NCBI GenBank assembly: GCA_030141605.1 | Contig: JAQGDQ010000031.1 | Location: 744,001-808,000 of the forward strand | Length of the DNA: 64,000 bases | Direction of reading: 5' to 3' | Origin: Tubiluchus corallicola | Lineage: Eukaryota > Animalia > Priapulida | Part shown: positions 5,828 through 40,332 of the stretch, piece after piece | Numbering within the stretch: position 1 is the first letter of the stretch | Layout: every line of letters begins with the position of its first letter | The notes under the pieces: generated by a model | What the model saw: the letters and a program-made list of their open reading frames with translations, nothing else | Told to the model about the DNA's origin: nothing | Database searches by the model: none | Made by a program: the position numbers and the translations under genes

Positions 5828-6306
5828 CTGAAATGTTAGATACTCAAAACAAAAGAGAAGAAATGATTCATTTAAGAGACAAAGGGAATAGTTGAATGAT
5901 CATAATCGTTTGGTTGCAAAGTTAAGGAGCACTGGTTCTGGTTATGGACGAGTGAACAAAGGGTGAGTTGCTCCTGGGCGGTTTCCAGTTCCTGTGGACC
6001 CTGTTCCAAACTTCAGAACCCTGTGTACTGGTCTGTAAATTGAAATTATTTCACTCACACATCTAAAATTTTACAAAATTGGTGTTAAAACAGAAATTTC
6101 GTGACTTCTACTTGCTCCCTGATCCCAATTGCAATATTGTTAACTTAGCGGAATGATTATGATGTTATATTATTAATTTAAATTAAAAAACGTTAAAGGA
6201 AAACCGGATGATTGTGTAAACATGAGTTCAGAATAAAGAATGCTCTAAAATATTGAAAACTACAATAGCCTATTTTAAATCAAAACTTAGATTAAATAAT
6301 AATTAC

Positions 6307-8496: not shown

Positions 8497-11400
8497 ATGG
8501 ACATACCAAACATAAAGAATAGACGGACTGCCTTAGAGAGAATAGAAAAATTTTTATCAGAAGTTTATTTTGTTGATGTCAATTTAGCAGGAAAGTAAGT
8601 GTTAAAATACAAAGTATGTGCACTCATATGCTATAATGTAGTTCAACATATTTTGTGAAATGTGAACTAGGGGTACTCCCACATTGGACTAGCTACATAT
8701 CAGTTAATATACATCACAAACTTTTGGTTGCTGCTTATTGGTATGAAACAGTTGATTGTCTTAAATGAATGAAACCAGTAGGCAGGCGTATATCATTCAC
8801 ATGTGACCATTAATGCACTCTTTGTAATATAAATTATCAAATACTTGCGTGTTACTTTTGCATTTGATTGTCACCAGTACAGTATATACATGTACAAGCA
8901 TCATAAGTGTAGGACTTAACAGACAAAAGGAAATTTGCTTCCCATTTACTAACTACCTATAATGCTTGTATTGGGAGTTATGAGTTCATTTTCAAATACA
9001 GGTTATACTCTGCTAAACAAAAAATCGACAATGTCTGCTATTACTCACCAGCTGAGAGACTAACTTATGAAGAGGCACTGAAGGGTGACTGGAGACAAGT
9101 AACACCTGGACAAAAGTTTGGGCCAACGTAAGTTAAATTTTTTTGTTTGTTTTTTGTCATCATCAGTGAGGATGCCCTGCTCGTTTTGTTCTTGGCACTT
9201 TCTGACACTGTGAGCAAAAAAAATCAAGAAAAAACTAAAACGAAATAGTTTGCATGACTTTTAATTAAATGCATTTGACAGCATAATAGCTGAAACTGAG
9301 CATCTGTTTGAAATTTACATCGTCGGTCAGGTTCCCAAGTGGTTTTTGTGGCTTTGTGAGTGATAGATTCTACATAAGACAAAATAGAACTTATCACTTC
9401 CAGCTGTGATGACATTGTGTAATATTGCCAGTTTAGCAGTTTACGTAATTTGTAATAATTTTTTATGGAATGAAAGTTGGAGTACTCATTGGTTTCGACT
9501 GAAATTCTCCATTCCTGAATTATGGCTAAAGCAGGAAGTCAGGTTGCGTTGGAACTCTGGATGTGAAGCCATGGTGTGGAAAGACGGGAACCCTTTACAG
9601 GTGCATATTTGGAAACATTTATTCCGTTTCTGCTTCTTTTTTGCACTCTTTACTTTCATTCATACCTTTATCATCAAAAGCATAATATCCAATAGTTGCC
9701 ATAAAATCATCTGTCACATCTGGTCTATCTTAGTTTTATCATTTTCGTTTTAGGGTTTATCTGGTGGAGCTGGTAAAAGGACTGATTTTATTTTGTCTAC
9801 CTGCTTGAAGAGCAATGAACTTTCGTATGTTCTCTTTACATTTTATTATGTGTTAAAAGTATTTTGTGTAATTGAATTATGTGGAACTTTAATAAGACAA
9901 ACATTATATTAATAAAACAACAGCCAAATGACTGAGTAAATAAGAAAAAAAACACTAACACATGCACTCATACATTGAGGCCTCATTCCTACATTGAATA
10001 GCATAAAGGCTAATTCCTACAGTGAATAGCATAACGGCTAATTAAAGGCAGCAGGTGCCCAACCAGGAGTTGAACTTAGAGCTTTGCATTTCAGGATGCA
10101 CACTGTGCCAAACTGAGCTACTGGACCAATTTAGCAGAGCTGTTTGCTAAGTTCAATCATTCAAATTATCATTCAGTTAATCATTCAAAGTCATGCAGTA
10201 ATCTATTATGCTATTTTGAATATACTCTGTACCATTCAATAGTGGTAGTTGACTAGGAATCTTTGCACCTATCTATGGGGCATCCAAAGCACACATAAGA
10301 GTTATCATTCTTCTTCTTCCCAGCTTTTCCCTATTCGGGGTCGCCGTTGTGAATGAGTCTTCTCCACGCATTCCTGTTGTTGACCATCTCTTCATTTATG
10401 TCTTCAATTCCCACAAGATCTTCACCGACTCTTCTCTTCAGGTGTCCATACCATCGCAGTCTTGCGAGGCTTCCCCTACTTTTACTGTTCCTCTGATATT
10501 ATTATTTCTAATTTTTCTTCTTCTTGTTATTCCCATCATTCATCTCAATATCCTCACCTCCACCACACCCATTTTCTTCTCTTTGGTCTTCTTTAGAGAA
10601 GGTGCTTCCAGCCCATAGATTCGAGCGGGTCTGACCATTTCTTTGTGGACTTTCCCTTTAAGTCTCACCGACTCATTCATAGAAGGTTTTGGCACAGTTT
10701 TTACAGGCGGATGCCCTTCCTGACCCTAACCCTCCCTATTTATCCGGGCTTGGGACCGGCACTGAGTTGGGACACATGTTTCGTGGCACATGCTCTGCCA
10801 TTTGAGCGACTGACTCGACATGGCGAGGCTGGTCTGACCTCTCACCCTGCTAATGCATATACACAAACTTGGTAATTTTACAGGAAGTCAGAACTACGCA
10901 ATCTTACATTGACAACATCATTAAATCTACCCAACAATTACGAATACTAGAAAATTTTAGAGTAATAGAATTTAGAATAATAAAAACATGGAGACTATCT
11001 CATTTATAGCACATATTTTTGTTGCATACGGGTTCTCAACCATTACAAGAGCACAGCTTGCTAATAAGCTACTAATAAAGTTGGTCATCACTTAAGAAAC
11101 TTTCTTTAACTTTAAACTTTCTGTAATTTAATCTTGCAAATGATTAATAACAGTATATAAAATCGTAAATAGTGGCTGAACACTAAAATGTTACACTTAT
11201 CAATTGTAGTATTACGTAACTATTAAGTATTACCTGCAGATAAAAAACATTTTTTGCAGCTTAATTTTCTGCAACCCTAAAGTTTTAATTGAGTGCAATT
11301 TTCAAAGATTATTATTATTGTTTGTTACACGGGTTTTCTGAATGTGCATTACATTAGTGTCAGTGAGCTACTAGTAAATTAAATATCGCTTGAAAGACTG

Positions 11401-13979
11401 TCGAAAAACTATTCATAGTGTTTTAGCAACAGTATGTATACAGTCAAACATTATTCTAATGCCCCACCCCTTTATAGTACCAACCTGGCTTAACACCCAC
11501 ATTTTTGGCAAACCAAAATGTCTGTATTTGCTTAACTATGTATATATTTATGTACCTAGTTATAATGCCAAATTCGCTAAGTCCCAAAGTGGGCGGTATA
11601 AAGAGGTTTGATTGTAGTAATAAACGAACACTGAACACTACTGCGTTCCACTTGTTTCATAAGTATTATGTACATACGAAGGGCTGTTTTTGAATTATAA
11701 TAATTTATTTATCTGATCCATTCTGGAAGTGTTCATTATTTCTTCTCTTTAAAAACTATTATTATTGACTAGTTTAATAGTGAGATAAATTTACGTAGAA
11801 AGAGAATAATATTTTTGGATAAACAGTTAACGAGTTTAACTGAATAAGTTTTAAATGTTGTATTCGTTAAAAGCAATTTTGTTTAATTTCAGTCATGAGT
11901 TGTACATAGAGATGGCTTGCAATGATTTGTTTGGTGCTGGTGATGGACTCATTTCGCCTCCAAATCCAGATCGCATGTATACAATAACATTTGCTGAAAT
12001 TGCTGTGTTTGATAGAGAAGCTAGTCATTTGATCCGAGACTTAGAAATACTTTATGGCTTGGCAAAAGTACGGTTTAGTAATATCCATGACATTATATGT
12101 TTGCTATACTGAATGTAGAAGATTTTATGTTTAAAAAGTCCAAATAAATTGTCTATTTTTGCTGCTACTACTGCAGATTGTCTTTAAGATTAAATTGTTA
12201 AAGGAAACAATTATTAATTTTATGATTCTGTAGTGCACTGAGTGAGCAGCTTTTGCTTGAATATGTGTAGTATGTACAGTAATTTATCACACTGGTGTGC
12301 AGTGCTCAGCCTTGCAAATTTTGGTTTTTGATTAGAGTTTGATTTGCTATCATACTTTTTGCGGCAACAGTACAAAGTAATTGGTGATAAGCAGGTTATT
12401 TTTGTTAATTCGCACTTCGTTTTGGTAGTTTTGAATTGCTTACTAATTTTTTTACTACCAAATACAGTACGTGGCCATTATGTATGTATAGGGTTGCCAG
12501 ACGTCCCTTATATACGGATAAATTATCCCATATTTGATATATCCCTTGTCCCATACTGACTTTTCGGGGACACCCAAATGTCTAGTATTTAGTTCATTTT
12601 CAAATTTAATAATAAAATACATTTTTGCTACCTCTTTACTGTTCTTAAATGTAACTTCAAAAGTAATTATACTTTCTTTTCTCAGATTCTCTTGATGAAA
12701 ATAAGCCAAATGTAATGAGGAAACTAGTGTTGCTAGAAGTTTACATAAAACTGACATGTTTGCTGCATGTTTGCAACTTGCTTTATGTTTTTAACTTATG
12801 TCTCTACTTTTATCCAATATATTGGTTCTGGGTGTGGAGGCATGTATGAATTTGTATATGTATAGTAATATAGAGAGAAATTTTAAGCGTCTTGTACTTC
12901 TAATTTTCTAATCTGGCAGCCCTATTCATGTAAAGTGTTATGGATATAATAGTCTCTGGTATACTAACTACAGTGTGTTTTCGTGTACCTGTGCTTGTAT
13001 AAATACTGTTGGTTGTTACCATTTACACAGAAGGGCCACATTTTTGGAAAGCTTATATGTAATTTAAGTAGTTAAATTTGGTTTAGTAGCTTCAGCTTTT
13101 GTGTTTGCATTTAACATAATTTGAGCTTTTGTTTGTTGGATATTTAACTGTCCATTTAAAGTATAACTTATTGTTTTTGTATTCGCGTAACTTTGTGCAC
13201 TTTTTCAGAACCTGTCAGAAGATGACTGCCGTGGCTACAAAGCTCTGTATTTGGCAAACGAAATGATAAATGCCTGTGATACTTCCAAGCCAGCAACTTT
13301 TAAGCTGTACGTTCTTAATAACATTGGTAAACTGTCAGTTTACTTGTATGAAATAGTACTGTCTATTGAGCATGCCAAAATCTAAGTTAATAACGTTGTC
13401 TAATTTTACTAATTACCTTAACATTCTTGATTTGCAGTTTTTGCAAATGGTGTAGTATAAAATGCATTATCATTATGTTATTTTTAAAGTTGTATACTTG
13501 GTCCACTTTTTACTTTCTGCTTTGCTTTACTAAAGCTCAAGCTTTTTCATTAACAAATATTAAAACATTTCGTAGTTTAGTGCCAATTACTATTTGATGA
13601 ATAGAGTGTCCTCATAAAATATTTTTGTTTTGATATTTTCTTTTGCCATTGTCCATGAACATGATTGGCTTGGACTTTTAAAAATGCTTCTTCCCACCAG
13701 AGCCATCTAGTGGGGTGTTTTTGTATAGTTTGCTTTTATTAGTCAAATAAACTTCTTTAAATTATTAATGTATTGCAATACATAGCTGTGCTGCACGTAA
13801 ATTGATGAACACATTAAAGTTTCGGTCTCTATCTAAACTGATTGTGCTTATGCAGCACTTTGTCACAAAATTATACCTGGTACTACGGATGTATTGATCC
13901 ATATTTAAGTGTATGAAAAATTCTACTCTCGTTGTTTTTGCCTTTTTATGTATGTTTTTGATGTTTCTTCCTTTCTCTC

Positions 13980-14016
<37 letters not shown>

Positions 14017-14025
14017 TCTCTGTCT

Positions 14026-14063
<38 letters not shown>

Positions 14064-14075
14064 TGTCTCTCTCTT

Positions 14076-14140
<65 letters not shown>

Positions 14141-17100
14141 CTCTCTCTCTCTTCAATATGAAAATGTTTGTTTATAGGGCAAGAGAGTTGGGAACAAAAT
14201 TCTTTGATAGTAGAAATGGAGATCTCCAGCATGTTGTTCATGCTATGGGTCACTGTCACATAGATACAGGTAGCTGCTTATTAACATAATTAACAAGATA
14301 TTAACATATTAACACTAAAACTACACCATGGAGTTCCTTTGGTTATAACTGGTACCGAAAAATATTATTATTTCATTGGTTTATTCTTTAAATTTTTAGG
14401 TTCTTGTTTTCGTCTATTTAATGCTACTGTTTTTTGTCAATTTTTTTTTGTTTGAGCATTTTTCGTGATGTAAAAATAGCGAACTGAAACATAGAGAAAA
14501 AAGAGCAATGGTAAACAGTGCCAAAATTTCGCTATGTACAATAGCTGATCGTTAAGACTGTTGCCAATAGTAAAGACAATTATCGATCAGTAGCGTAGTT
14601 AAAATTGGTGGGGGTGCTACTTCAGAAAATTTTTAGTCATTGTTTTAGTACTGTGTAAAACGAAACAAATATATGTAATTTTAATGTTGTAATTTGTAAT
14701 TGTAATCTTAAACAAACAAACATACGAACATTTATATATAAACTTGATAAAATCCTAAACAAAAAATTTTTTGTTGACAAATAGCCTAAACTGCCACAGT
14801 TTAAGAATATGCCGGTACACGGTTTTTAAGCACGTGACAACTGACAACAAACTGTGTGAGTGACAATACTTTCTCTACCTGGGCTCAGACGTGTGCATGG
14901 CCGCATGCGCACAACAGCCAAACACAGCTGAAGCGCACTGTGCTGGGCTGACAACAAACAGTACTACCCTTATGTGCTCTGGGCCGTACACCGTACAAGT
15001 ACAAAGAAACAACTAAAGAAAGACTTGTATTGAATATTATCGATAATATCGAGTCAACAAGTTCTGCAGTTCCACAGTACCTATACACGAGCCGTCAGTG
15101 TTCTCAATAGTCACGCAATTTGCCATTATTGGTATTAATGAAGTCTCGCAGTAAGGAAGTAATTTTTTTGCATCAGTAGAAGCAGTGAATTTGCAAACCA
15201 GTAAAACAACCATATGGAACTCTGTTTGGTTTAATAGTATTAACATAGTATCTAGGATGTGCACTATATGCTGCTGCTGCTGCTTGGAATTGTGATCTAA
15301 TTTTACTTATGGATTGTGTTATTGCACAATACTTTTAAATCAGCCCTGTTATAGTTTAGGATGTAACTAAAATTTGCCTACTTGAGCGTTACTGTTAATG
15401 TAGTTTTATTCAAATTTCTGTGTTTTTTGCTTAAATCTAATTTAGCATGGTTATGGCCAATAAGTGAAACAAAGAGAAAATGTGCTCGAAGCTGGTCATC
15501 AGTGGTCAAACTGATGGAACAATATGATGATTTTACCTTCACGTGTTCACAGGTGTTTTTTTGTTTGCTAATTTTTTACACATGTTCACATTTGCTTTTT
15601 GTTTGCTCATTATTTACATCTCTTCACAGGTATTTTTGTTTGTTTATTATTTTCACATGTTCACGCGTTCTTCTTGTTTGCTCATTATTTACATCTCTTC
15701 ACAGATATTTTTATTGTTTATTATTTTCACATGTTCACATGTGGTTTTTTGTTTATTCATTATTTTCATATATTCACAAGTGCATTTTTGTTTGTTTATT
15801 ATTTTCACATGTTCACATGTGGTTTTTTGTTTATTCATTATTTTCATATATTCACAGGTACATTTTTATTTGCTCGTTATTTTCATGTGTTCACAGAGGT
15901 ATTTATTTTTTTATTTGCTCATTGTTTACACATGTTCATAGGTATTTTTTGTTTGTTAATGATATAAGGAAATCAGTTTGCTAGCTAATAGTGTTTAACA
16001 TATAACTTCCCTGATGGCTATTTTCATCGATGCAACTAAAAAATCAATTTTGTTAAATGCCTCAAAATAGTTTTTGTACTTATGGTAGGTTTTCATTGTT
16101 CTGCTTCTCTTCTGACATTTGTGTTACTGTCCACTTTAGTTAATGATAACCACTAGCTGACCACAAGTTGGGTGTGCCTGTGTTTCTTATATACCCTAGT
16201 AAATCAATACTGTATAATTTTTAGGCTCAGCAATTGAGTTGGATAAAGCAGGAGTATCCTCCTTTGTACGAGAAAATCAAACACTTCGTTTCTCTTGGAA
16301 AATTCATTCCAGTAGGTGGCACTTGGGTAGAAATGGTAAGATGTTACTTTTGTTCTGTGCTACATTCTGCACATCATCAAGCTGCAACAGTGCACAAATT
16401 CACAGGTACAGAATGTCACAATTTGTCTGTACTATGTACCCGAGTGCATTCCTCATAAATGGCCTTTCATAGAAGTTTAATAAAATGTGATAATTCAAAA
16501 AGAGTTTAAATTACCAAAACATTTACAAAAATCTGTTTTACTAAACAAACAGTGACACTGGCTATTACGTTAGAAATTTCCCATTTTTGTTCACATTTGT
16601 AAAAATAGTCATTCAAAGCATTGTATAAAATGAGGTTTTGCTATGCAGTGTTTAATGTGCATTGACAACTAATAGAAACATATTTTGGAATTTAATCTGA
16701 CATTTATTATATTATTTAGCTGTTGCTTAAAACTAAAGCATTTGGCCAAAGACTGAATAGTTCTGCTGTTTAAACTTCAGGACTCAAGGAGGCACCTGCC
16801 GTTTTCTGGAAATACCTAGTTAGTTCACTTGAACTAGTTTTGAGAAAATGGGAAAACTGTTGCCTTTTGCCACGAAGCACTGGTTTAATGGATTACCTTA
16901 AATTTGGGATGAATGCACGATAAAATGTGCTCAATTATTTTGTAAGAGAAAGACAGAAATATTTAATTAATGTACTTTTAAATTATTGAACCTATAGGCT
17001 GCACTGAAGTGGAACTACAAATATGCATTCTGTACTTGCTGGCTGTTTTCAGAAAGCAGAACATGTTAGGCTCCTCCGTCCAGATGGAGTTGTCATGCAA

Positions 17101-20100
17101 ACTATTGCTAAAGCCATCAGATATGCAGGAGCACTGCAAACTGTCGCAATTATAGGGTTACATATATCACCCCATTGCCTGTAAAGAGTTGAAAAGCCTG
17201 CCTGACTTAGTATAGTAGCTCCTGAGTGCATAATTGTAACATGCCTCTTGATTTGCTAAAAAGAACACTCCTGTGGACTACTAAGTTTGTCTGAAAATTT
17301 GTGCGTGAAATGGATGTTAGGTTTTTTAAGTTGATAATAACTTGCTTACTAAGTTTCAGATCATCAAATCATTTGGTGGTAAGATGTAGCATGATATTAT
17401 GAATGCCAGTTTTCCTGATTTGATAATTAAGTTCTGCCAAAAATGGACTTACTAGGTTTTTTGTCAAAATGGGTGAGAGATCCCATTAATTGATTTGTCA
17501 CTAGATTTGACCATTTCCTACTTTAGAAGATGTGTCACTGATTATATTTCAGCTCATACATAAATTTGTTGGTAAATTTTCTGGTTTATTATAGGATGGC
17601 AACATACCAAGCGGCGAGTCATTCATTCGACAGTTTGTATATGGGCAAAGATTCTTTGAAAAAGAATTTGGAAAAAAGTGTGATGTCGTAAGGCACTTAT
17701 AATATCTACTTGTTGTAAATCCAGATACAGTGAATACCTGTGCTGACTTTGTTCAATGGTACAGAATCTTGTAAATCTGTAATTTTGTGGGAAGCAGTAC
17801 TTTCCCAAATTTTTCAACTGACAAATATATTGTAAATATTGCGTTTTGTCCTATTACTATCATAGTACAGTGATATAAATGTACCACAATTTTTTTTATA
17901 TTTTAGCCCTTTAAATATTTGAAAATTGTGCTAATTGGCTACACTAATATGCTTGAATATTTGAAAAATTTTCAGTTTTGGTTACCAGACACATTTGGTT
18001 ATTCAGCCCAATTGCCACAAATCATTCGACTTGCGGGAATTGAATGCTTCCTTACACAAAAGATTAGCTGGAATCTAGTCAATACATTCCCAGTAAGTTT
18101 GTAGTATCTTCTAAAGTTTACTAATTAAAATTGGTGAGTGTAATATTATACAAATAATTTAAATTGAGGGAATTAGTGCTGCTAGTGACAATCCTGTTGG
18201 TAATAAATGCACTGCTGTCTGAAAAACTAGGCATTATTTCTTTTATTATTCACAACTATAATTTGTAATTAACAATTTATAATTAACAGACCATTGTTAC
18301 ACCTTTCCTTGAGCTTGAACTTGCACATTCGGCATTCTGCAAAAGTCATTGTGATTGGTCATGTGACATTGTTCTGGCAATTAGCAGAATTTTTTACAAT
18401 CTTTTACAAATTTTATCAAATTGGTGTGTAATAAAACTAGCTGTTGTTCCCTTATTATACTTCAGACAAATTGCCATAAATTTTGTTGGCCGTTTTAATT
18501 GTAACTGAAATAATTGCTGACAACAAAATTGGAGTGAGCAGTTTAGACACCAAAAAAGTAGGCAATGATCTAAAATTTATGTTTATGAATTATCATATTT
18601 GGCAGTATGGTAGATTCCTTGCGAAAGCAAATAATTTTTTCCCAAACCCGATTAGATGCATAAAATTTGATGCAATTATTTCTTTTCTTTCCAAATTTTG
18701 TGAAAGAATTATAATATTTTTTATTGTCAAATTTTTACTATTGAGTCCTTTTATATTTTTCTAATTATTTTTTAGGCTGACCAATAATTGGTAGTAATTT
18801 CATTGCTGTAAAAACATCAATTAATTGAAAATTTGATGTCGTTATCGATTACTGTCAATCAGTTGTTGAAAGCTTGAAAACTGTACGGTTCGCATTGCTG
18901 TAGCGCCATAAATTATTTGCTTTCGTAGCAAAATGAAAACAATTTTTTGTGCAAATTCCCTAATTTTGGCTGCATTTGGAATATGGGAATATGAATACAG
19001 TTGTAATAAACTCTGCAATATATTTTGAGGAGCTTCGTTAATTTTGATAATCTTTCAGCACAACAGTTTCATCTGGCAAGGTATAGATGGCTCTAATGTC
19101 TACTTGCACTTTCCACCTGGAGATAGTTATGGTATGGAAGCAAAAGTGGAAGACGTAAGATAACTTTTTAATACTATAACATAATTGTAGCTCCATAATA
19201 TTTTATACTTTCTGTATACTTCATTCTGCACTGCCTGTGCAATGTGTTTACACATGGATGCATTCATTTTCCTAAAATTTGCAAGATGCAGTAATCAACT
19301 TTATTTTGCTGTTTAATGTGCTCTCCATACAACTTTTTTCAGTTATTTAAATGAAGTTGGTCAAAGATTACTAATGTAAACAGCTGGTGCAGTATGGCAG
19401 ATAAAAGTGCAACAGTAGCTGTCTCACTAGTCACCCATCTATTTAATTGCCAAACTCAGTGTTGTTTAAGTTTGGTTGTTGAGCCCACACAATGACCACT
19501 CGACTAATCCTCATCATGTATTAATTAATAAACAAGAATATATGAATTTTAGCATTTTAAAACAGTGATTAATTGTTATATCATATCAACTAATTATTGC
19601 TGAATTTGACACCTGAACAGATCTCTTTACATTATTTTCTATATAAGGCACAGTTTCCTTTAATGACATTTTAATTTGTACCCTACTTTGCTATATCAGT
19701 GTTGTTAAGCAATGACTTTCTGTACTCAGCTTCAGACTTAGTTCAACTTTCTTAACTACAGTGAAAATTTACTTTTGAAAAAAATTCTGCTTACCTGTAT
19801 TGAAATCAAGAAAAAGTTGGTGGAGATAACTGTTATATCATGAAATTATTATTATCAGCTTTTATTATTTACAGTTACTCTTCAAGTTACTTTTTTCAAA
19901 AATACTTCTGTTTTTAGTTATTTTTCACATTATTTGTGCTAATATTGGTGAACTTATATAATTATGTTTTAGGTACTAAAATGTGCGCAAAACAATAAAG
20001 ACAAGGGTAGATTTGACTGCAGTATAATGCTGTATGGTTATGGTGATGGTGGAGGTGGACCAACGTAAGTGTTTATTTGTATTTGCTGTGTCTTTCATTC

Positions 20101-23100
20101 ATCCTTAATTTCACCCAGCTTCATTTAAGTCCCTGTACCTGGCTGCATCATTGTAAGTGCAGTCAACTCTTTCTTTGTCACTGGATTTTCACTGGACCAC
20201 ATTCAGCTGACCAAGGCTGTGTCCGAACCGTCAGTTATTCATGTTTTTTCAGTGTGATATGTTAGCATGTTATTTTCCCCTTTATTTTAGGCTTATAGTT
20301 AATGACGTATTCATGATAACAGTAAAGTAAAGTGCTAGTTAGATATTAAAGAGCGGTGCACTGCAAACATTGTACTTCAATAAGTAAGTAATTTTTTTTT
20401 ATCGCTTGCATTACTTATATAACAGCAGTTAGTATATATTCTTGGTCATCTTGGAAATAGGCATCGCAGACTGCAGAAATTTGATGAATTCTCACAAAGA
20501 CAATAGTAAAATAGAAAGTCTGACAGATTTTTCTCCTCCACTGGTCCACGAACCCGAGACTTTTCTACTTTTCTGGCAGCTGTTCTAACCATTGAAAAAC
20601 AAGGGCGTTTAACTTTTCGGATTCAGATATTTACTCTCGAGGCTAGTAGAGCTGTGCTAGTAGTACCAGTTGGAATTCGAAGTCCATACTATAGCAAAAG
20701 TCCAAGACATAACATGATATAAATCAACATTTTGTTAGTATTTTACTGCCAATTCAAAAGATCTGTGCTACTTCATTTTCTAATATTTTTGCACCATGAT
20801 TACTTAAATAAGCTAATTCTGATAACACTTTTAATTTTAGGGAGGACATGGTACAAAGAATTTTGCGCATGAAAGATATTGATGGTTTACCAAGGTATGT
20901 GTGCCTGGCAGGCTGACAGCACTCTGACCTGCTGTTAGCTTGAGGTGTAAGAAAACAACCATATTGTTGACAGACAGATTTTTTGTTGAAATTGTAAGAA
21001 ATGTTGTTAGTATTCCACAAAAAGCTGTGTATAGAAAGCACAGTTCTTAGAACACATCACTGCTCTTCTTCTAAGTTAGTAAATTAGCAGTAACCTAAAA
21101 TAAAGTTGGCACTGCTTAATAGACTCACTTTGGGATGGATGTGTTTTGACACAATTAACTGCCTGATTCTATTACCTTATGGGTGTAGCATATTAGTATT
21201 GTAGAAGTATGAGTCATCGCACTTATAATATGCACTACAAAGCTTTAAATAAATTTTAGAAACGAATTAATGTCAAAAGTATTATGTGCAGTTATTTAAG
21301 AACACTAATTTATATAAGCAAATAAATAAAAAAGGAAAATAAGAATCTGATTATTACCACTAAAAATTACAAAAATTTGTGCAAGCTCAGTTGCTTCATT
21401 TCTTCACGAGGAAGTTGGTTTATGAAATTCTCATATTGATAAAAACATTAATAATCTGTTGCTCTGTGCTATGCATGTTCACCCATAATACCGAGACAAC
21501 TAGTTGAGCTGCAGTTGGTGATGACCTTGTTTCCCCTGCGAAAAGCAGTGGGAGCTTCAACAGCAAACCGGTGAGCAGTTGCTCACATGCACAGTTGCTG
21601 CAGGTAAAAGGTTAAGTGTACCACAGCAATGCGTGTTGACAACAGCTGTCACGTGACGTGTGAGTAAAGCAAAGCTGTTTGCTTGCTTCTGCTCAGTAAC
21701 TTCAGTTTTTTTATGTGGACTTTACTTAATTATGAATTAGTATGTGTATTGAGTGATTTACTAGCAGGAGCTTGCTTAGGAACAATAAATAATGAACTAA
21801 GTAAAGTTCTAGCTAGCTGTTAAAACTGTTGGTATTACAACAGCATGGGCTGCGAGGCATTGACAAGTCTACACACATGCATTATCTGGTATGCTTAATC
21901 TTTGATCTTTTCACTGTGAAAAGGCTTATTGAGTAATACTGGTCTTTATAAAAGTAGTCTCTCGCTGTATATAGTAGTTAAATGTCATTGAAATTGCACA
22001 CATGTAAAAGAGTACTTCCTGTGTTGTGCACTAATTTACTGCAATACAGTAGTAACGTTAAATAGTGTTTGTAACAGTGGATGCTTATTTTGAAATGCAC
22101 TAGTGACAGCAGTATTTAGCCTTTCCGTGTTTATCCTTTCCAGATTGTTTTAAGACTTCTTAGTACTGATCGTCGCTAACACAGTTATTAAAATACTGAT
22201 TGTTTATTCGTTACTATATTAGTTATCAGCTCAACTGATGTCAGATTTTTAGGAAAGAGGTACAAAGTACAGCTTTTGCAAAGAATTTACAGAATTTTGG
22301 AAAGAATTAATATCAGTCTTTTTTATTAAATTGTGAAAGTCATTAAATGTAGGTCAATAAGCTCAATATCTACTATAACGTTCTGTGTTTTTCTGAGATA
22401 TTTTAAGCTATAACCTTTAGGGATGAAACTGGATCTTATAATCACGTGAAAGCAATATTAAATTTGAAAAACCGCAAGAATGTTGCACCTCTACTAGTCA
22501 TAAAATTGATAAGACTCGCTTTGTTTATTATTTATATCAAGAGTTTTTTGAATTTGAATTGTGTTTCTGAACTGCTTGTGTTGTCAACTTAAAAATTTAA
22601 ACCTAGAAAAATTGAAACCTCTTTTGCCGGAAATTTGTCTTACATTTTCTCAAAGATTTAATTTTATTTTCATTTGCTATAAAAATATTTCTGAGATCAT
22701 CGATTTTTATTTTCACTGATCATACGTATTTTGTGCAAAAATAATTTTAATCTTTATGTAATCTGCTCAATGTGTTGAACAGAATATTATTGATTTTGAT
22801 GATCTAATGATGGTATAATTCATGATACAATAACAAATCTGCATTTCAGAGTTAAAACTTCTACACCCGTTCTGTTCTTTGATGAGTTAAAAAAGCATTC
22901 TAAATCATTGTGCACATGGGTTGGTGAATTATACCTGGAGTTACACCAAGGTACTTATACTACCCAGGCAAAAGTAAGATCATTTTTTTCTTTAGTGTCT
23001 ACAGTTTATTTTGTACATTCATTTTAGCACAATTTCGTTTTTACATGAAAACAACTTCCAAAAATTCACAACTAGAACAAATCTTGTTGTCAGTAAAATT

Positions 23101-26100
23101 CATTTTTCATCTTTTGTTCTAACTTTAACTGGAGTTTTTAACAATAATGCTGGATAACACAATAAACATTAGTTACAGCTGACATTTTTGTCGTTATTTT
23201 TATTCACCATTTTACTATTTTAAACTCTTGCAGTAACAAATTAAAAATAATAAAACTAATTTGCCTTATTTGATTTAACGATGTATTTTAACTCAAGAAA
23301 CGTCTTGTCAGCAGAAGGTTCTTTTTAATAAATATTTCTGATATTTAAGAGTCTAGGGTATTTCATAGATAGTTACGTCAAATATAAACATTGAATATGT
23401 TAAATGACACTCTCTATGTATACTTCAGTTTTTAATTAGACTTATGTCGATTAATTAACTCAGCACTACACATGGTTGACATACAATTATAGTGCCACTT
23501 TCAAATCATTATTTATGAAGCACAAACAAACATCGTATAATGTGTTTGCAGATTTTATTTAAGTTACTTTATTTCAGTTTTTTCTTCCATGTAGCTCAAT
23601 ATTTTGCAGTGATTAGCACATCTAGCAATGTCGCCAAATTTTCAAGTATGATTCATCAAAAATGCTTCTATTAATAACAGTTTTTGATATTAAAAATTAA
23701 CTGTTGTTCACCACAGCCCACATAGCAAATATAGCTAAATTTATAGCGAGACATTTAATCACTGTTAACATGTTAACAGGTGCTAAAACTTCTGATCACA
23801 GAATTATACCATTTCTGCTGATTGAGACTGAATTAAGGTTCATTTACCAGACATCTGGAATGCATTAATTATGCCTTGTGTGTTATTTCATATCCCGCTG
23901 TGTATAAAAAGTCATTAAGAATAGTCGCAAAAATTAACGCAATAGCGCAGGCCTGATGATGTGATGCACGGGTTCAATGAAAACGATGGAAAGACGCCGT
24001 AACGCATAGTGGGTTCCGAATGTCCCATAAACTCCACTTAACTATAATTCATTAAATGCTTCCCTTGTGTTTCAGTTAAAACAGTTAAATAGACAGTGTG
24101 AATTCTTGCTGCAAAAACTGGAATTTTTGTATGCTATGGTGGCATTAACTACACATAGGTGGCATGATGCCGATGAGGAAATGAATGTGTAAGTGTTTGT
24201 GACGCTTGCATGTATTTAATAACATACTGTCTCCAATATACTTGTCACTTATACATCAAGTAAACAACATCATTTATCCATTTGTTTGTACATTCAAACG
24301 TTTTGCTTGAATCTACAAAAATACTGAGTTTTTTATGCAGACGAAACTTTAAATTTTTATTTGCTAGAGGAGTGAAAGAGTTATTCTTAACCAAGGTTAT
24401 CGGCAATGTCGAACTTTGGCTTCTGAGTTTCTGACACATTTTTAAAAGTTCAGTAGTTTTTTGTGCATCCAGAACATTTGACAGAGGCATAATTATATAT
24501 TTACTATTATGGCATGGCGGAGCAATATTTGCCATTTACTTTTCAACTATTTACAAAAAATTATTGAAGGAACTGAAAACTATAAACGATGCAGTCCATT
24601 GATTATGTTTCTTGCTCTATTAATTTTTCTGTATGTTTTGTCACATATCAAACAAAAGGTTTCTTATATGATTAGACGATTATCATTGGTAATGAGCTAG
24701 GGTTTGGTCCCGCCACAATGATATTCTGCCACTGTGAGAATAAAACATGCATATTATAGCTTTTCGTGAAGAAGATATTTGATTTGAAAAATCGTTTCAT
24801 TTTATCTGTAAGTCTGATACACTTACCACTTCATGTAATTATTGGTGTATGAATCATTATGAACTAATTGTAGATTTTGATAATGATAATGAATTCATAC
24901 TAATGATTTTATGGACTAAGCAGACTTTGTGACTAAATTTCTTCAATTTTCAGGGGAACAGGTGAGCATTTTCCCGTGTTTCTTTGGGAAACATTGCTTC
25001 TTCAGCAGTTTCATGATATTTTGCCAGGCTCTTCTATCCATGTTGTCCATGAGGAAGCTCTATCTACATTGCAAAACTTGCACAAGTATCTTAACAGTAT
25101 GGTTGATGCATCTGCTTTTCTTCTCATGCCGTCTAACGAGGTATAGAGCTTTGAAGACGTGATAGTCTGATACAGTAGGCGTTGCTTAATAGACTCACTT
25201 TGGGACGGAAGTCTTTTGACCCAATTAACTGACTGAACCTGTTAATTGACAGAAGTAGTATTACTAGTATAGAAGAATGAATCATCAGCTCAGTATGCAC
25301 TGCAAAGGCTGCCTATATGTATCTATATCGTTACTGTATCTGTATGATGCCTGTATCTTTAACTGTTAACTGATTAAGCATGAAAACCTGATTTTCAACC
25401 AGAGCTTCAAAAGGAAACCACTAGACAGGTAATTAAATGTTTAGCTTCCAGAAATTCTTTGGTAACGAGGTTAATTGCAGTGGATGAGCATGTAACAAAT
25501 TCAAAGCAAAACCGCTACCCTAGTATGTTAGTGCACGATAAACAAACATGCGTACAAACAAAACGGTACTTAACGTGATTGTTTCTATGTACATTATAGA
25601 GCACAAAAGCTAACTAAGATGACACAAATGCAGTAAAAGCTCATTGATCACACAAAAGTGTCTTATTTAAGTACGTGAAGTAAAAATATCGAGTCAATTA
25701 TGCGGGGTTATTTGAGTCAATTGCTGAAGTTTTTATATACATTTGAATAGGAGTGGCACGCCAGACGTTTTTGAGTTTATTAACTGTGAGTCTAATAAAC
25801 GTCACCTACTGTATAATGATATCAAAACAATAAAAAACTGTTTTGCAGATTTTTTGCCAGTTACTGTCATGAGATTTAGTAAGAGAAACTGTGCATTAAA
25901 CATAAGTTGAATGGATTTTTGGCTTCTTTTTCTGGTGAGGCTATGTTTTTCCTGCCAGGACTTGAATCAGTCTTTGAAATTTATTGTAATTTGTGTATCA
26001 ATGTTGGGCTTTAAGTGCAGGCATGTCTAATACCCCACAGACTTCTTTTTTGAACACTTTTGTGTTCTAATTTTTGACCATGCTTTGAAAAGTGAAATGT

Positions 26101-29100
26101 GTTTTCTACACTTTACATGGCATATGTGAGAGAATGCCATTACATACTATTGTTACTGTCCATTAGATGCCACCACATAACAACTTGAGAATTCTATTGT
26201 CTTTTTTATTAAGTGATAAATAAGTATGATAGGTAAACATTTTTTCATTAAAAAGTGAAATGAAGGTCTTCATTCAAATGGAGAAGAACTGCTCTGCATA
26301 TTTGCCGTCATTTATTTATGTTATACTGTTTTCCTATTTGATCACCTGCTAAAACATGTCGCTTCATTATCAGCCTGTAAGTTATTGCATTAATAAATTC
26401 ATTGTGAATTATAAACATCAATCATAATTCTGCTTGTGAAGCCACTTGCTTACTTTAACATTCACTGTTTCTTTTTCCAAAATTTTTAAACCATTAAGAT
26501 GTTAGCAGAGTTGCTTTGTTTCTTTATAGGGGCTAGTAGGTCATGTTGCTGTTATTAACACCCTCTGCTGGCCAAGAACCGAAGTGATTAAGGTGTCATC
26601 AGCCAAACTGTCATGTTCACTTGATTGTCCAGAACAGGTATCTTCTGACAAAGAATCAAAGTTCTTGCTGCTGTCTGATATTCCTTCGATGGGCATTACA
26701 TCGATTGCCAATTTAGCAGGAGGGACGATGACCACCAAGCTGCCGAACGAATCTCATGCTGTTATACATCAAGATGGTGATATTTTTATCTTGCGCAATG
26801 ATAAACTAACAGCAAGTTTTGATTCATGTGGTAGGCTGGTCTCTTTAAGAGTTTTAGACTTAGAAAAGGAGTTTGTTGCTTTCGGATGTTTGGCTAATCA
26901 ATTTGTTATGTTTGATGATATTCCGTTATACTGGGATGCTTGGGACGTAATGGATTATCACTTACAAACAAGGTGCAGTAACTTTATTTTGATGTATTTA
27001 AATAGTTATAAACTTTTATTATAAAGTTTAAATTTGACTGAACTGGTGCAGAATGTTATTATAAGGTGTCTTTTGAAATCTTTGTAAATGACTGACTGCT
27101 GTGCAGGTAATTGAAAGTTTGCTAAGAAAGCTATTTTATAAATATTGTATTCTTAAGTTTACAGTGTATGAATGCGTTTTTCGTACATTGTTAGTTGAAC
27201 TGCACAACTTGGGCAACTTGTGGTAGTTGCTCTCTTCTGAAGGTCGTTAAAACTCCTGCATGCGAAGAACAAACCATTTTTTTCTAGATTTGAAACAAAC
27301 AAACGCATGACAAGTAAAAAAACTAGGAAACATAAAAAATAACAGTTTGGCGTTTTGCAGTACGTAGTACTTGTTCTGTTTTAAGTACTTCACGAAGATT
27401 TCAAAGCAAGTTAAGTTGGCACTATGTGTAATTTAGAAATTTGTTCTTGGTTTTTAGGAAAGCGGTGAGTAACATCAGATTGGATGCTGTGATTACTGAA
27501 AGTGGGCCTCTTAGAGTAACTCTTCACACTTCTCTTCAAATCAGTGGTGAAGCACCGCCTGGTGAGTTTGGTGGCAGTTACATTGAGCAATGGATTTCTC
27601 TCGATGCATTTTCTCCATACATCAGGTTTTCGACAAAGGTACATACATACAGTTTTGATTCTTCAATTAGCTTGAACTGCAAATCATTGTTTTTGTAATA
27701 GACAGTAATGGTAAACAGCATGCTTTCGGTTACTGAAGCCGAAAATGTATAGTTGTCGTGCCACTGTTCTTCAAAGCCTAGTTGTCGAGGAAGCGTAAAA
27801 TTACAGTACGTTAGTTGTACACTGTCACTGTATAATTTTCACGATCGTGAAATGAAGCCCAGTCATAAATCATTGCTAATACAAACTTACCGTTTATCGG
27901 CTGCATCTCAACGGTATTAAAGTAAAAACTCCTTTGTTATTGTTCTGAATCGTACCCTAATATTGTTATATGCTTGTGGCAGGATCAGAATCTAGCTAAT
28001 TATGTAAATTAATTCACGCCTTAGATTAGACACTGAATTGGTAACTCCCCTAGTGAGAAAAATAGTCAAGGTCATGATGAAACCAGTTATAAACACTTTC
28101 TTTTCTTGATTTTTAAATTAAACATTTTTGAAATTCATAATATTTGTGTCCCATCAATCTGTGGAATGTGGTCAAAATGTCTTTAATGATATATTGTACC
28201 ATATGAACCATATTATTTAAGGCTCACAAAACCAGTTATTTGAGGTTTATGATATTATGTTAACTATAGCTGGAGGCCATGGAATTTTAAAAAACGTATT
28301 TCCCCTGAGGTTCTCAGCCTTGGTAACATGATGTTACTAAGTATGCACCGTGACACTAAGCAAGTCCCTTTGCCTTGAAATAATAATGCTGTGGGCTACA
28401 GTTAGGTGGTCCATTACTGTGCTTTGCCCAAATATGCATGCAATGGTACTGTTGTAGGAAATAATGACTGTAAAAATAGTGTAATGTGAATGAATAATCA
28501 CCCATGAATGCAGTGATCACTTTGTAAACTACTGCTGTACAATTGCTCATGATTGAGAACACATCTGTCATGTATTATTGTGTTTTTCAAATTGGCTAAT
28601 TCAAATAAAGTTAATGCGCCGGTTAGCAAAACAAACATGTTCTAAATTCATCATATTTTTTTAAAAATAGAGATCTTTTTCATACATGGTTAAATAGATC
28701 AACAACATTTATAAGTTGCACAATACTGGTTTAGCTTGGCAAAACTATAGTATAAGCAAGTTCATTCCACCAAAGAGTTCTTGCTCCTGGCTTTAATACA
28801 TTTAACACACAATGATTTGAATGAATTTGACATAATTCAATTAACACACAGCCAAAAAGTCATATACTAATTTAATAATTTATATACCCGTCACATGCCA
28901 ATTATTGTACTTGAGCATTGAATGTAATTTAAGCACAGATTGTCTTGAAAGCATTTTGTACAGGACAGGCACGTCAAAATGCAATTATTCCACACTAATG
29001 ACTGAGATTTTTTGTATAATTGTTTCTCTCAATTTTTATGTATATTCAGCCTAAACTTAGCAGAGTGCATGAAGAGATTATTTACTTGTTTTTAACTAGA

Positions 29101-32100
29101 ACAGCAAATTTCATTTGTTACCACTTAATATTTTTGTACATTTGTAGGTTAAGTGGAATGAGACTCATAAATTTCTGAAAGTTGAGTTTCCATTCAACAT
29201 CCAAACTAGTGTTGCAACTTATGACATTCAGTTTGGTCATCTACACCGGCCAAATCACCTTAATACATCTTGGGACAGTGCCAAGTATGAGGTAAAGTCT
29301 GTCTTTCTCGTGCTGTCTCTCCATCTTCTCTCCCCTCATCTCTTTTGTTACCTTCTCTCCCCCTCCCCCTCTCTCTCTCTCTCTCCTTTCTCTCTCTCTC
29401 TCTCTCTTTCTCTCACATGCAGCAGTTTACTTTTGGGTCTGTTATTTTGCAGTGTAAAAGTTTTGTACCTAGTAAAAAAGAAAAATACCTGGGTCATATT
29501 TTATCAGATGACAATAGAGATGATTTAGATATATTACGACAATGTTCAATTTACTATGGCAGAGCAAATAAATTACTCATGAAATTTACTCACTGTTCAG
29601 GTAACGTGAAGAGACAATTGTTTAATGCTTACTGCAGTGTTTTTCAACCAGTGTGCCGCGGCACACTGATGTGCCATGAGAGATCATCAGGTGTGCCGTG
29701 GGAAATTATCTAATATCACCTAATTAACCATTGTCGGGTGTCTGTGCTGTAATAAAGTGTGGCCGATAATGTAATACTCTTCTATTTCAGTGGGTGGCAG
29801 CAGAGAGCGATAAATGCCTGTAAAGTCAGTAGAGTTAGTGTTTATGTACAGCATCATTACAAATATACTAACTTGACTCTCAAAACACTGCGGGATTGAA
29901 TGATAAACAAGAGAATTATCGCTGTTGTATGTTTGCTTAGTAAATTCGTATACAGTTTACTTTGAGCACATAACTGGTTTAGATATACCATAGTTTAGGT
30001 TTGCTATATATACAAATGCAAATGTGTTGCGGGCAATCAACCACAGACGGCTTCATTAATATAGTAAGTTTTCAGCTTCTTTAGAACTATCAATCGACTT
30101 GATCAGGCGTAATTGTAGGGCCAAAGAATTCCACAATTTGGAGGCAGGAGACGTGAACGATTATGTGACTAGCCTGCCACGTGAGACTTCAAGATTTCAC
30201 CACTTTCTGTGCTGACGCATCAGTCAGAATGGTCACGTGACGCATCAGTCAGAATGGTTGGTGGTGTGCCCGAGGATTTTGGAAATGTAAAAAATGTGCC
30301 GTGGCTCAAAAAAGGTTGAAAATCACTGGCTTACTGCACTACTTTTTATTGTATGTCCACTTGGAGACATTTTTATTCTTACAATCTTAGCAAACTCAAG
30401 GTTGCATATAATGTATCAACACGGAAGCTATTTAACTTTTCATATGATACGAGCGCAAGATATATTTCTACTAGACTTAATATTATTTATTTTGATGTTA
30501 TTCACAGAAAATGTGCATACAGTTTATATGTCAGGCTAAATAAGAGTGAAAATTTTATATGCAAGAACATTTTAAACAGTGATGCAAACTTTACTTCTGC
30601 AATTAGATGTCATTGGCGTAGTTTCTTATATAGTTAATTGTTATTTGTGTTATTGTTGTGGTTCATGATTTATTGTATTATTTGTATTAATTTGTGATGT
30701 GTTTATGAACTTTGCGAAGTTTGAAATAAAATATTAAATTTAAATCTAGATCTTGCTCTTTCCACATTTCATTATTTTTTCCTCATCTCATTTTTTTTGC
30801 TTTCTCTTCAGTGTTTACATGTGTAAAAATTACATCTTTGAGAACCTATATAAATCATATTTTTATAGTTGTTATTACTTATTAACATAGCAAGTGTTAT
30901 CAAAATTTTCAAAAACTGTTCTGGTATCGTTATTTCTCAGGTTTGTGGACACAAATGGATGGCTGTGACAGAGTATGGTAGCGGGGTTGCCATCCTCAAC
31001 GATTGCAAATATGGCTTCTCAACTCTAGGTGGAACAATTAGAATGTCACTGTAAGATCATTTTTATAACTATAGTATCTGTCTTACCTACAATTACATGC
31101 ATATCAAAGTTTTTTTGTACTGTTTGTTATATTGCAAGCTGAAATCCACCTAGCACATAACATCATTCAATTACTAGTACTGAATGATTATGGTAGGACC
31201 CTGATATAACTAATTACCAAGGACAAGACCTGCTGAGATCAGATATTGAAGTGTCTAGGGTCATTAGGATGTAAATACATTTTGTTTCAATAAAAGAAAT
31301 GGCTGGAAGCAGTATGATAGAGGAAACCCCCTAAAGTATTCTCTCTGCTGTCATCAATCTGCTTACTAACTGGATCAAGTGCTATTTATCTTTGTATCCA
31401 TGTGCAGATTTGGCTATTCTGCATTATCTTGTTTTCCGTACAAGAATTTTTTTCAATAAAAGAAATAGCTGGAAGCAGTATGGTAAAGGAAACCCACTAG
31501 CGCTCTCCGTGCAGTCACCTATCCACTTACTAGCCGGTTCCAGTGCTGTTTACCTTTGTATCCATGTGCATATTTAGCTATTCTGGATTATCTTGTTTTT
31601 TATTTGAAATGTGAAATATTGGTCATTGGTTATTTGTTCAAAGGTTGCGATCACCCAAAAGTCCTGATCCATACTCTGACATGGGCGAGCATTCGTTCGA
31701 ATATGCACTTATGCCATTCAAAGGTAAGTCACAGATTTAATTCTCCAGTACCATTGTAAAACATTTTACTGGTGTAAAAGTTTATTAACCAAAAAAAACT
31801 GGTTACCAAAAAATTAGAGTGTGCACACACTATATTGATTTTCTTATTGATTTTGGTTGTTGGTTTGTTTGCGAAATAGGAAGCAAAATTGTTATTTATT
31901 TTTGGGTTTTGTGAGAAAATTTGCATCATTGTTCTCTTTAAATATCCCAAAAAAGTAAGTGAATTCTGATGAAATTTTGTACAAGTATTTGGCTGTACTG
32001 TGGCTGAAGGATCATTCACTTAGATTTGCTGATCTGGTGATTGCTTAAGAAGTCAAAAAAATCTAATTTTTACAAGGAAAATTCTGTTTTTGTGGTATTT

Positions 32101-35100: not shown

Positions 35101-35205
35101 GTGAAAACACTTCTAGTTTATCTACATGTTGATCAAATACCAATTAGAATTTCCAAGGAGTATTGGAAGCTTCAGCAAAGATTTGCACCTAGTGGAGATA
35201 AATAA
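8497..35205 (+). CDS. MAN2C1: Cytosolic alpha-mannosidase 2C1 (GH38), 25 coding exons, 3303 nt, about 1100 aa
   Basis: Exons: 8497-8594, 9002-9127, 9477-9600, 9754-9824, 11893-12067, 13209-13306, 14178-14269, 15446-15552, 16225-16335, 17595-17687, 17976-18092, 19059-19154, 19973-20064, 20841-20894, 22850-22973, 24076-24188, 24954-25140, 26530-26972, 27458-27638, 29148-29291, 30941-31050, 31644-31723, 32446-32585, 33560-33693, 35013-35205 (TAA). Motifs [90 protein letters not shown]. Confidence 0.96.
9985..10127 (-). mobile_element. tRNA-derived SINE (head 10054-10127) with a 28-bp tandem duplication in the body
   Basis: Minus strand GGTCCAGTAGCTCAGTTTGG (A-box)...GTTCAACTCC (B-box); degenerate cloverleaf; ATTCCTACA(T/G)TGAATAGCATAA(A/C)GGCTA x2 at 9985-10040. 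Confidence 0.65.
10308..10770 (-). mobile_element. Internally deleted RTE-clade non-LTR retrotransposon (5'UTR fused to ORF C-terminus, (GAA)n tail)
   Basis: Minus-strand translation [19 protein letters not shown]...EVRILR*MMGITR...IRNNNIRG...[11 protein letters not shown]...[14 protein letters not shown], then GAAGAAGAA. The 5' part carries AGGAAGGGCATCC...GTAAAAACTGTGCC. Confidence 0.8.
10728..10762 (-). ncRNA. Twister self-cleaving ribozyme core (3' two-thirds intact; 5' cleavage strand degenerate or missing)
   Basis: Minus strand UGCCGGUCCCAAGCCCGGAUAAA-UAGG-GAGGG-UU: P4 stem CCGG/CCGG, loop UCCCAAGC, pseudoknot partner GAGGG. Confidence 0.75.
11441..11614. mobile_element. MITE family A copy 2
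   Basis: TA|CAGTCAAAC...GTTTGATTG|TA; homologous to 674-859. Confidence 0.7.
12489..12924. mobile_element. hAT-type MITE
   Basis: TIR TAGGGTTGCCAGA / TCTGGCAGCCCTA; degenerate 8-bp TSD TGTATGTA / TTCATGTA. Confidence 0.7.
13970..14153. repeat. Compound (CT)n/(CA)n microsatellite just upstream of MAN2C1 exon 7
   Basis: Directly visible alternating CT and CA tracts. Confidence 0.95.
15530..15955 (+). repeat. Minisatellite of about 38 bp, about 11 copies, starting inside MAN2C1 exon 8
   Basis: Unit similar to TTTGTTT(G/A)(C/T)TCATTATTTTCACATGTTCACAGGTATTT; TTCA(C/T) anchors recur about every 37-39 bp. Confidence 0.85.
20535..20607 (-). mobile_element. Degenerate tRNA-derived SINE head
   Basis: Minus strand ...CAATGGTTAGAACAGCTGCC...GTCTCGGGTTCGTGGACCAGTGGAGG; A/B-box remnants at tRNA spacing. 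Confidence 0.45.
21108..21250. mobile_element. Partial copy of MITE family B
   Basis: GCTTAATAGACTCACTTTGGGA(T/C)GGA...TTTTGAC shared with the left end of 25173-25811. Confidence 0.6.
25173..25811. mobile_element. Tigger/pogo-like MITE family B copy 2
   Basis: TA|CAGTAGGCG...CACCTACTG|TA; homologous to 4702-5458. Confidence 0.8.
29300..29415. repeat. CT-rich microsatellite
   Basis: Directly visible (CT)n tract after MAN2C1 exon 20. Confidence 0.85.
29430..30750 (+). mobile_element. 5'-truncated L2/Daphne-like LINE (RT C-terminus and 3'UTR), interrupted by a hAT element
   Basis: [20 protein letters not shown]...[26 protein letters not shown]|TTFYCMSTW...KLKVAYN; stop at 30637; AATAAA at 30725. 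Confidence 0.75.
29635..30328. mobile_element. hAT (Charlie-like) non-autonomous transposon
   Basis: TIR CAGTGTTTTTCAACC / GGTTGAAAATCACTG; perfect 8-bp TSD GCTTACTG (29627-29634, 30329-30336); GTGTGCC subterminal repeats. Confidence 0.9.
31281..31600 (+). repeat. Diverged tandem duplication of about 165 bp in MAN2C1 intron 21
   Basis: TTTCAATAAAAGAAAT(G/A)GCTGGAAGCAGTATG...CTTTGTATCCATGTGCA...GCTATTCTG occurs twice. Confidence 0.85.
34365..34480. mobile_element. MITE family A copy 3 (partial, inverted relative to copies 1 and 2)
   Basis: TA|CAGTCAAATCTCTTT...CCCACTTTGG...GGCATTATAACGAG is the reverse complement of the right half of 674-859. Confidence 0.6.

Positions 35206-40278: not shown

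Positions 40279-40332
<54 letters not shown>

What the first reader, a model, noticed from the sequence alone, without database searches (positions are those of the whole stretch)
10728..10835. Twister ribozyme core at the 5' end of an RTE retroelement
Seen on the minus strand: UGCCGGUCCCAAGCCCGGAUAAA-UAGG-GAGGG-UU. Known: this is the twister catalytic architecture (P4 CCGG/CCGG, loop UCCCAAGC whose CCC pairs with the GGG of GAGGG, general-base G in GAGGG). The first 23 nt match my recollection of the rice twister used for crystallography, and twisters process 5' ends of RTE-type elements in Schistosoma. The required 5' strand (UAA-CCUA-GC) is not intact; the nearest candidate is CAG-CCUC-GC (10823-10831), implying a long P3 insert. 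Inference: this copy is probably inactive, but it marks a twister-processed RTE family in this animal. It lies antisense to MAN2C1, the orientation that avoids cleaving host pre-mRNA.
Basis: partly seen in the sequence, partly recalled or inferred. Interest (0 to 1): 0.75.

Follow-up and report, generated by a model that had tools for sequence, protein, structure and literature searches.

The report
Truncated twister ribozyme heading mini-RTE retrotransposon
This is the back half of a self-cutting "twister" RNA at the front of a short, abundant jumping element; this copy lacks the cut site and is likely dead, while sister copies carry the missing half and likely cut themselves out of host transcripts, as shown for a blood-fluke retrotransposon.

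Summary
The twister core is real (10730-10759, minus strand; Rfam twister-P1 E 2.5e-4, below gathering). It heads a 464-nt, high-copy, internally deleted RTE-type element (10308-10771): about 90 nt of 5' UTR, an AUG, the last ~150 residues of the RT protein (with deletions), and a (GAA)n tail. It lies antisense in a MAN2C1 intron. Similarity to the family stops sharply at 10771, so this copy is 5'-truncated inside P3 and has lost the cleavage site, the P2 5' strand and the L2 GC. Contigs of other copies show the missing AA-CCUA-GC strand, so the family ribozyme is predicted intact. The orientation argument has no support. Extra finding: directly 3' of the twister, 25 related sequences share a covarying hairpin, probably an H-type pseudoknot; the published Perere-3 sequence fits it too, and I did not find it described. 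Twister-headed RTEs (Perere-3) and bipartite RTEs are both published, and this scan has noted twister-headed mini-RTEs in four earlier findings on other genomes. Verdict: new member of a known kind; cleavage untested.

The parts
10308..10771 (-). 5'-truncated copy of a high-copy bipartite (internally deleted) RTE-type element, 464 nt
   Evidence: summed contig depth 1e4-1e6 inside, 6-191 in the upstream flank; matches of other copies end at 10771 and 10308
10760..10771 (-). 3' strand of twister P3; its partner strand is missing in this copy
   Evidence: sister contigs carry a complementary CACU plus G-run and an AAGCCA loop 5' of this point; 7 relatives carry the same loop
10730..10759 (-). 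twister 3' core: P4-L4-P4, AUAAA, P2 3' strand UAGG, GAGGG
   Evidence: Rfam RF03160 31.7 bits; no other letter at 2% or more among laid contigs over 10735-10771
10705..10727 (-). covarying hairpin directly 3' of the twister
   Evidence: alignment A1, 25 sequences: 97% of cells paired, 6 of 7 pairs with changes on both sides
10691..10715 (-). predicted pseudoknot helix: loop GGC(A) 10712-10715 with (U)GCC 10691-10694
   Evidence: 73% of cells paired in A1; own-versus-cross permutation p 0.002; most family copies have C at 10694, so 3 bp in this family
10678..10680 (-). AUG, likely the parent element's start codon, in frame with the RT C-terminal fragment
   Evidence: translation; relatives have an AUG at a similar distance
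10337..10671 (-). broken remnant of the C-terminal ~150 residues of an APE+RT single-ORF protein (in-frame stops, frameshift, deletions)
   Evidence: tblastn of P0080/P0089/P0093/P0077, E 1e-16 to 9e-14, 43-48% identity in the first block, reaching the protein's last residues
10308..10336 (-). short 3' UTR ending in (GAA)n
   Evidence: sequence; other copies diverge into unrelated flanks at 10308
8497..35124 (+). host gene MAN2C1; the element lies between coding blocks 9466-9600 (plus a probable small exon starting near 9752, read by eye) and 11891-12067
   Evidence: tblastn of five MAN2C1 proteins; Pfam Glyco_hydro_38C

Best explanation
This is a 5'-truncated, likely dead copy of a high-copy non-autonomous RTE-type retrotransposon whose full-length members carry a complete type-P1 twister fold that likely cuts the element's RNA out of host read-through transcripts at N^AA. 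Shown: the element joins a ~90-nt 5' UTR to the last ~370 nt of an RTE-type ORF and a (GAA)n tail; that joint is shared by other copies; sister copies carry AA-CCUA-GC; this copy stops inside P3. Inferred: the cleaved RNA is reverse-transcribed in trans by an autonomous RTE protein (not found here); the insertion site supplies the P1 5' strand; this copy lost about 30-35 nt at its 5' end, most simply through incomplete reverse transcription at the G-rich P3. The hairpin or pseudoknot 3' of the twister is predicted to be a second cis-element.
For: Rfam hit. Family boundaries 10308 and 10771 in 4 runs from at most 2 samples. The 10771/10772 junction is spanned by low-depth contigs in X1 and X4. 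One X2 contig shows flank-U-AA-CCUA-GC followed by a short P3; one X1 row (1 contig) and the X3 consensus show (C)UA-GC-CACU. Contigs with 3-15 differences span the 5'/3' joint near 10680. RT C-terminal homology. In two related families conservation starts exactly at the AA: 22 and 8 distinct flanks. L098 is a short twister-headed element with a 20-nt target-site duplication ending on the AA. 29 of 123 twister loci have RTE-type ORF homology downstream. Perere-3 precedent with in vitro cleavage (PMC8501958).
Against: No cleavage assay. For this family the complete 5' strand with its AA is seen in 1 contig, with partial support from 2 more rows; the multi-contig consensus rows are blurred by a variable G-run and two of them read as a P2 mismatch, so a 5'-end pile-up is not shown for this family. 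No target-site duplication was found for this copy, so a later deletion cannot be excluded. No autonomous parent was found, since no genome is held. RTE clade membership rests on architecture, not on an RT tree.
Confidence: 0.85

Rival explanations
1. One reading: this copy has a degenerate 5' strand at 10823-10831 and a ~60-nt P3 insert, and could still fold weakly.
For: The candidate has A at the cleavage position, 3 of 4 P2 pairs and the GC.
Against: It lies in single-copy flank; its score is at chance level; P1 has 1 of 4 pairs; the insert would be 63 nt against 5-47 nt in 81 intact loci; the MFE fold does not form P2 or P4, z 0.52 (a weak test, because intact L065 does not fold into the twister in MFE either).
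Confidence: 0.04
2. The family descends from a twister-bearing RTE, but its ribozyme is mostly a passive relic; copies spread without cleavage or from a few master loci.
For: The blurred consensus rows could hide a P2 mismatch; several copies break off inside P3; summed depth is higher at the 3' end.
Against: The core is invariant among laid contigs; one copy begins at the predicted cut site with a perfect P2; related families pile up at the AA.
Confidence: 0.08
3. The locus is a chimeric retrocopy: a tRNA-like 5' half joined by template switching to the ribozyme-less RTE remnant, that is, an incipient SINE of the kind Kojima describes.
For: The flank has a D-arm-like stretch at 10792-10807 and is 53% GC against 29% further out; no target-site duplication at 10771; RTE-derived SINEs lack the ribozyme end (PMC5786205).
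Against: The pattern was written after seeing the sequence; similarity to the window's tRNA-like repeats is marginal (145 and 84 of 2000 shuffles as good); no Rfam tRNA hit there; the join is single-copy. This concerns how the copy arose, not what the family is.
Confidence: 0.12
4. It is a circularly permuted (P3- or P5-type) twister whose missing strand lies downstream.
For: Permuted twisters exist (PMC5408937).
Against: The best downstream candidate scores 6 of 8, chance level; P1-type scores best in Rfam; sister copies hold the strand upstream.
Confidence: 0.01

Closest known systems
T-variant twister ribozymes at the 5' end of Perere-3 (RTE clade), Schistosoma mansoni (Liu et al. 2021, PMC8501958; read parts 1 and 3-7 of 9, plus three supplement searches)
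   Same: Type-P1 twister core followed by GAGGG-UU at the head of an RTE-type element; element start at the AA; same downstream hairpin, with loop-distal complementarity in the Perere-3 construct.
   Different: Here the carrier is a ~500-nt non-autonomous derivative in another animal; P2 is CCUA/UAGG; P3 is G-rich with an AAGCCA loop; this copy is truncated; activity untested.
Bipartite non-autonomous RTE elements such as RTE-N1/N2_Lch and RTESINE1/2 (Kojima 2018, PMC5786205, parts 2-3 of 5; PMC7245038, passages)
   Same: 5' end of an RTE joined to its 3' end by internal deletion; high copy number.
   Different: The parts read invoke only the ribozymes of Ruminski 2011 (HDV-like according to PMC6765202; that paper is not held). 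This family keeps ~370 nt of 3' sequence including coding remnants, in frame with the AUG.
Rfam twister-P1 (RF03160)
   Same: 3' half matches the consensus nearly letter for letter.
   Different: 5' half absent in this copy; score below gathering; the model ends at P1 and does not cover the downstream hairpin (no other family at E 0.5 or better in 14 loci).

Membership tests
twister-P1 ribozyme (this copy) | P4-L4-P4 with UCCCAAGC and GAGGG able to form T1 | tested here: met
twister-P1 ribozyme (this copy) | 5' strand with scissile N^A, P2 partner and L2 GC (needed for T2) | tested here: not met
   element ends at 10771; best candidate at chance level
twister-P1 ribozyme (this copy) | Rfam gathering score 67.2 | tested here: not met
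   31.7 bits; note that 13 of 14 related loci also fall below it
twister-P1 ribozyme (family) | 5' strand AA-CCUA-GC complementary to UAGG | tested here: met
   complete in 1 contig, partial in 2 more rows; share among copies unknown
twister-P1 ribozyme (family) | self-cleavage at N^A | not testable with these tools
   needs an in vitro assay
Perere-3-like twister-processed retroelement | element 5' ends and target-site duplication sit at the AA | tested here: inconclusive
   1 contig in this family; met in two related families and in L098; no duplication for this copy
RTE clade | single APE+RT ORF, no C-terminal CCHC knuckle, short 3' UTR with simple repeats (features recalled; single ORF for Perere-3 stated in PMC8501958) | tested here: met
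   relatives of ~1000 aa with PF03372+PF00078; no CCHC in 4 of 4; (GAA)n tail
RTE clade | RT-domain phylogeny with named RTE references | not tested
   the element has no RT core, and no named reference was fetched
bipartite non-autonomous RTE | 5' and 3' ends joined by a deletion shared across copies | tested here: met
   contigs of other copies span the joint near 10680 in 4 of 4 runs
bipartite non-autonomous RTE | autonomous parent with matching ends in the same genome | not testable with these tools
   no genome held

The most novel reading that the evidence does not exclude
Twister-headed RTE elements, from Perere-3 to this family and many metagenome-derived relatives, carry a second conserved and apparently undescribed RNA module right behind the ribozyme: a bulged hairpin whose loop pairs with a strand about 10-20 nt downstream (H-type pseudoknot), often just before the AUG. 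It would act on the uncapped cleavage product, as a cap-independent initiation element or as the 5' handle for the RT protein, and its retention in non-coding mini-elements favours the second role.
Probability: 0.45. Interest if true: 0.55.

Novelty: new member of a known kind. Interest (0 to 1): 0.33.

Why it matters
The locus itself is a dead repeat copy. The family extends the only function so far published for eukaryotic twisters in the papers I found (5' processing of Perere-3) to another animal and to a non-autonomous element. The downstream hairpin or pseudoknot gives a concrete, mutable candidate for how an uncapped RTE RNA is translated or recognised, which bears on RTE-based gene-writing templates (PMC13708176, passages only).

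Tried and rejected
Whole-genome search: no genome held. No second copy in the window. No RNA holder listed; run X6 laid 0 contigs: no evidence on expression. Viral-contig scans with three patterns found 0. Pfam on the RT remnant: 0 families; word-index homologue search: 0; the HMMER representative search then found 189 hits at E 0.001 or better. Target-site duplication search: best match 6 nt, not adjacent. Single-sequence folding does not recover a twister even for intact L065, and the z-scores of the 48-nt downstream segments are mostly weak (window -0.2). A first crude pseudoknot test gave p 0.026, but its non-RTE control gave p 0.036, so I give it no weight. One search used a register off by one (39% paired); one search is the intended one. 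Covariance model R1 hit 15 of 63 loci outside its training set, all close kin of training families, and missed more distant hairpins such as L001, L020, L035, L070 and L081. Literature searches found no twister-RTE paper besides PMC8501958 and no description of the downstream module; Ruminski 2011 is not held and Roth 2014 was not read, so absence from print is not established. The window's downstream and P2-GAGGG motifs were not in the Liu supplement. The host animal group was not resolved: one MAN2C1 exon is about 40-50% identical to vertebrate and invertebrate proteins alike.

Full report
Observation. The minus strand carries the 3' half of a type-P1 twister at 10730-10759. Rfam twister-P1 matches at 31.7 bits, E 2.5e-4, against a gathering score of 67.2, and only the 3' half aligns well. 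The core pattern occurs once in the window and in 0 of 100 shuffles. By PMC5408937 (passages), T1 needs L4 and the GAGGG loop, which are present, while T2 needs the GC of L2 and catalysis needs the A at the cleavage site. Both lie on the 5' strand, which is absent here.

Context. Five MAN2C1 proteins map as ordered plus-strand blocks from 8497 to 35124; the motif falls between blocks 9466-9600 and 11891-12067, so it is intronic and antisense. The animal group was not resolved.

The element. No genome is held, so I laid public contigs on the stretch. In 4 of 4 runs (at most 2 samples) summed depth is 1e4-1e6 over 10308-10771 and 6-191 over 10794-11000. Core-to-flank ratios are about 1,200-3,600; the tool warns that this is no copy number, so I read it only as high copy. 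The copy differs from the majority of laid contigs at 18 of 464 positions, and loose ends near 10401, 10466 and 10515 suggest further small deletions. Downstream of an AUG at 10680 the sequence matches the last ~150 residues of ~1000-aa APE+RT single-ORF proteins, E 1e-16 to 9e-14, down to their final residues, followed by a short UTR and (GAA)n. Contigs with 3-15 differences span the joint between the 5' UTR and this remnant, so the deletion is a family trait: a bipartite non-autonomous RTE-type element as described in PMC5786205. The RTE label rests on architecture, not on a tree.

The missing strand. Other copies stop matching at 10771 and continue into a G-run and an AAGCCA loop. One X2 contig reads flank-U-AA-CCUA-GC and a short P3; one X1 row and the X3 consensus read (C)UA-GC-CACU. 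CCUA pairs fully with UAGG, and CACU with the AGUG at 10760-10763. The multi-contig consensus rows are blurred by the variable G-run and two read as a P2 mismatch, so the share of intact copies is unknown. No other letter reached 2% across 10735-10771. The window's own junction is spanned by low-depth contigs in X1 and X4 (X1 may be the source sample), so the truncation is real. No permuted strand lies downstream. No target-site duplication was found.

Relatives. Pattern scans gave 123 twister-core loci; 89 have a full-score 5' strand. 29 of 123 (15 of the 43 with 800 nt or more downstream) have RTE-type ORF homology on the same strand; 12 of 13 selected downstream ORFs hit an Exo_endo_phos family. 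In two multi-copy families conservation begins exactly at the AA: 22 distinct flanks (from 24 loci, 22 with the anchor) and 8 (from 9 loci). L098 is a short twister-headed element with a 20-nt duplication ending on the AA, and L121 is bipartite like the window's. This is the pattern reported for Perere-3, where the variants cleave in vitro, variants without the AA do not, and the target site supplies P1 (PMC8501958).

Mechanism. Inferred: full-length copies are co-transcribed from host promoters, the twister cuts at N^AA, and an autonomous RTE protein copies the RNA from its 3' tail. This copy lost its first 30-35 nt and cannot cut in cis. It corresponds to the enzyme strand of a twister split at P3, but I have no evidence that it is transcribed. 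Its antisense orientation says nothing about selection, since it is a single copy with no cleavage site.

Downstream module. In an alignment of 25 hand-picked sequences (window, 22 RTE-linked loci, L033 and L116) a bulged hairpin directly after GAGGG has 97% of cells paired and 6 of 7 pairs with changes on both sides; slid registers give 31-43% for the whole structure against 88%. The loop pairs with a distal strand in 73% of cells, with about 6-7 rows visibly misaligned there. An alignment-free test on 17 representatives (1 of 18 dropped for lacking the inner stem) gave own 11.0 against cross 9.4, p 0.002; all 4 GAC-loop sequences have a distal GUC against 0 of 13 others. Against: the windows were chosen after looking, relatedness is not corrected (the 4 GAC loops may be one event), a cruder test was matched by its control, and most copies of this family have only a 3-bp helix because they carry C at 10694. 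Out of sample, the Perere-3 construct in the Liu supplement shows the same hairpin, with a UUAGCG loop-side stretch and a fully complementary CGCUAA 14 nt further on (read by eye); there the AUG lies much further downstream. I rate the hairpin as well supported, the pseudoknot as probable and its function as open. My searches found no description, with key papers unavailable.

Verdict. A real twister remnant in a dead, truncated copy of a twister-headed mini-RTE family. Both components are published separately, and four earlier findings of this scan describe the same combination in other genomes. New member of a known kind, interest 0.33, with the downstream module as the part worth following.

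Noticed in passing
window 10691-10727 (-); alignment A1: Covarying hairpin and probable pseudoknot directly 3' of the twister, shared with many RTE-linked loci and with Perere-3.
   Followed up: yes
window 10680-10471 (-): The retained AUG is in frame with the RT C-terminal remnant; the stop at 10540-10542 is not present in most laid contigs, so many copies may encode a short peptide.
   Followed up: partly
window 10792-10807 (-): tRNA D-arm-like stretch in the single-copy flank just upstream of the truncation; possible chimeric retrocopy or decayed SINE head.
   Followed up: partly
L008, L038, L046, L065, L105, L120, L123, 12-14 nt before P4: The P3 loop AAGCCA is conserved across families whose P3 stems differ; no consistent pairing partner seen by eye.
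   Followed up: partly
window 2164-2239 (+) and 10055-10127 (-): Two decayed tRNA-like sequences (Rfam 36.8 and 19.2 bits), probably SINE heads; the second lies 180 nt beyond the element's tail.
   Followed up: no
L065:1-924; L098; L121; L033: L065 has an RTE 3' end followed about 20 nt later by a twister-headed RTE 5' end; L098, L121 and L033 are further short twister-headed elements, two with target-site duplications.
   Followed up: partly
L122, L123: Twister-RTE 5' ends on short contigs of two bacterial assemblies, most likely eukaryotic contamination.
   Followed up: no
window 1616-5843 (-), 37462-52210 (-), 56676-57377 (+): Other genes seen in translation: an acyl-CoA dehydrogenase head to head with MAN2C1, a SNF2-type helicase, and a decayed LINE-like RT fragment (the last by eye only).
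   Followed up: no
window 15538-15955: 39-nt period tandem array inside a MAN2C1 intron.
   Followed up: no
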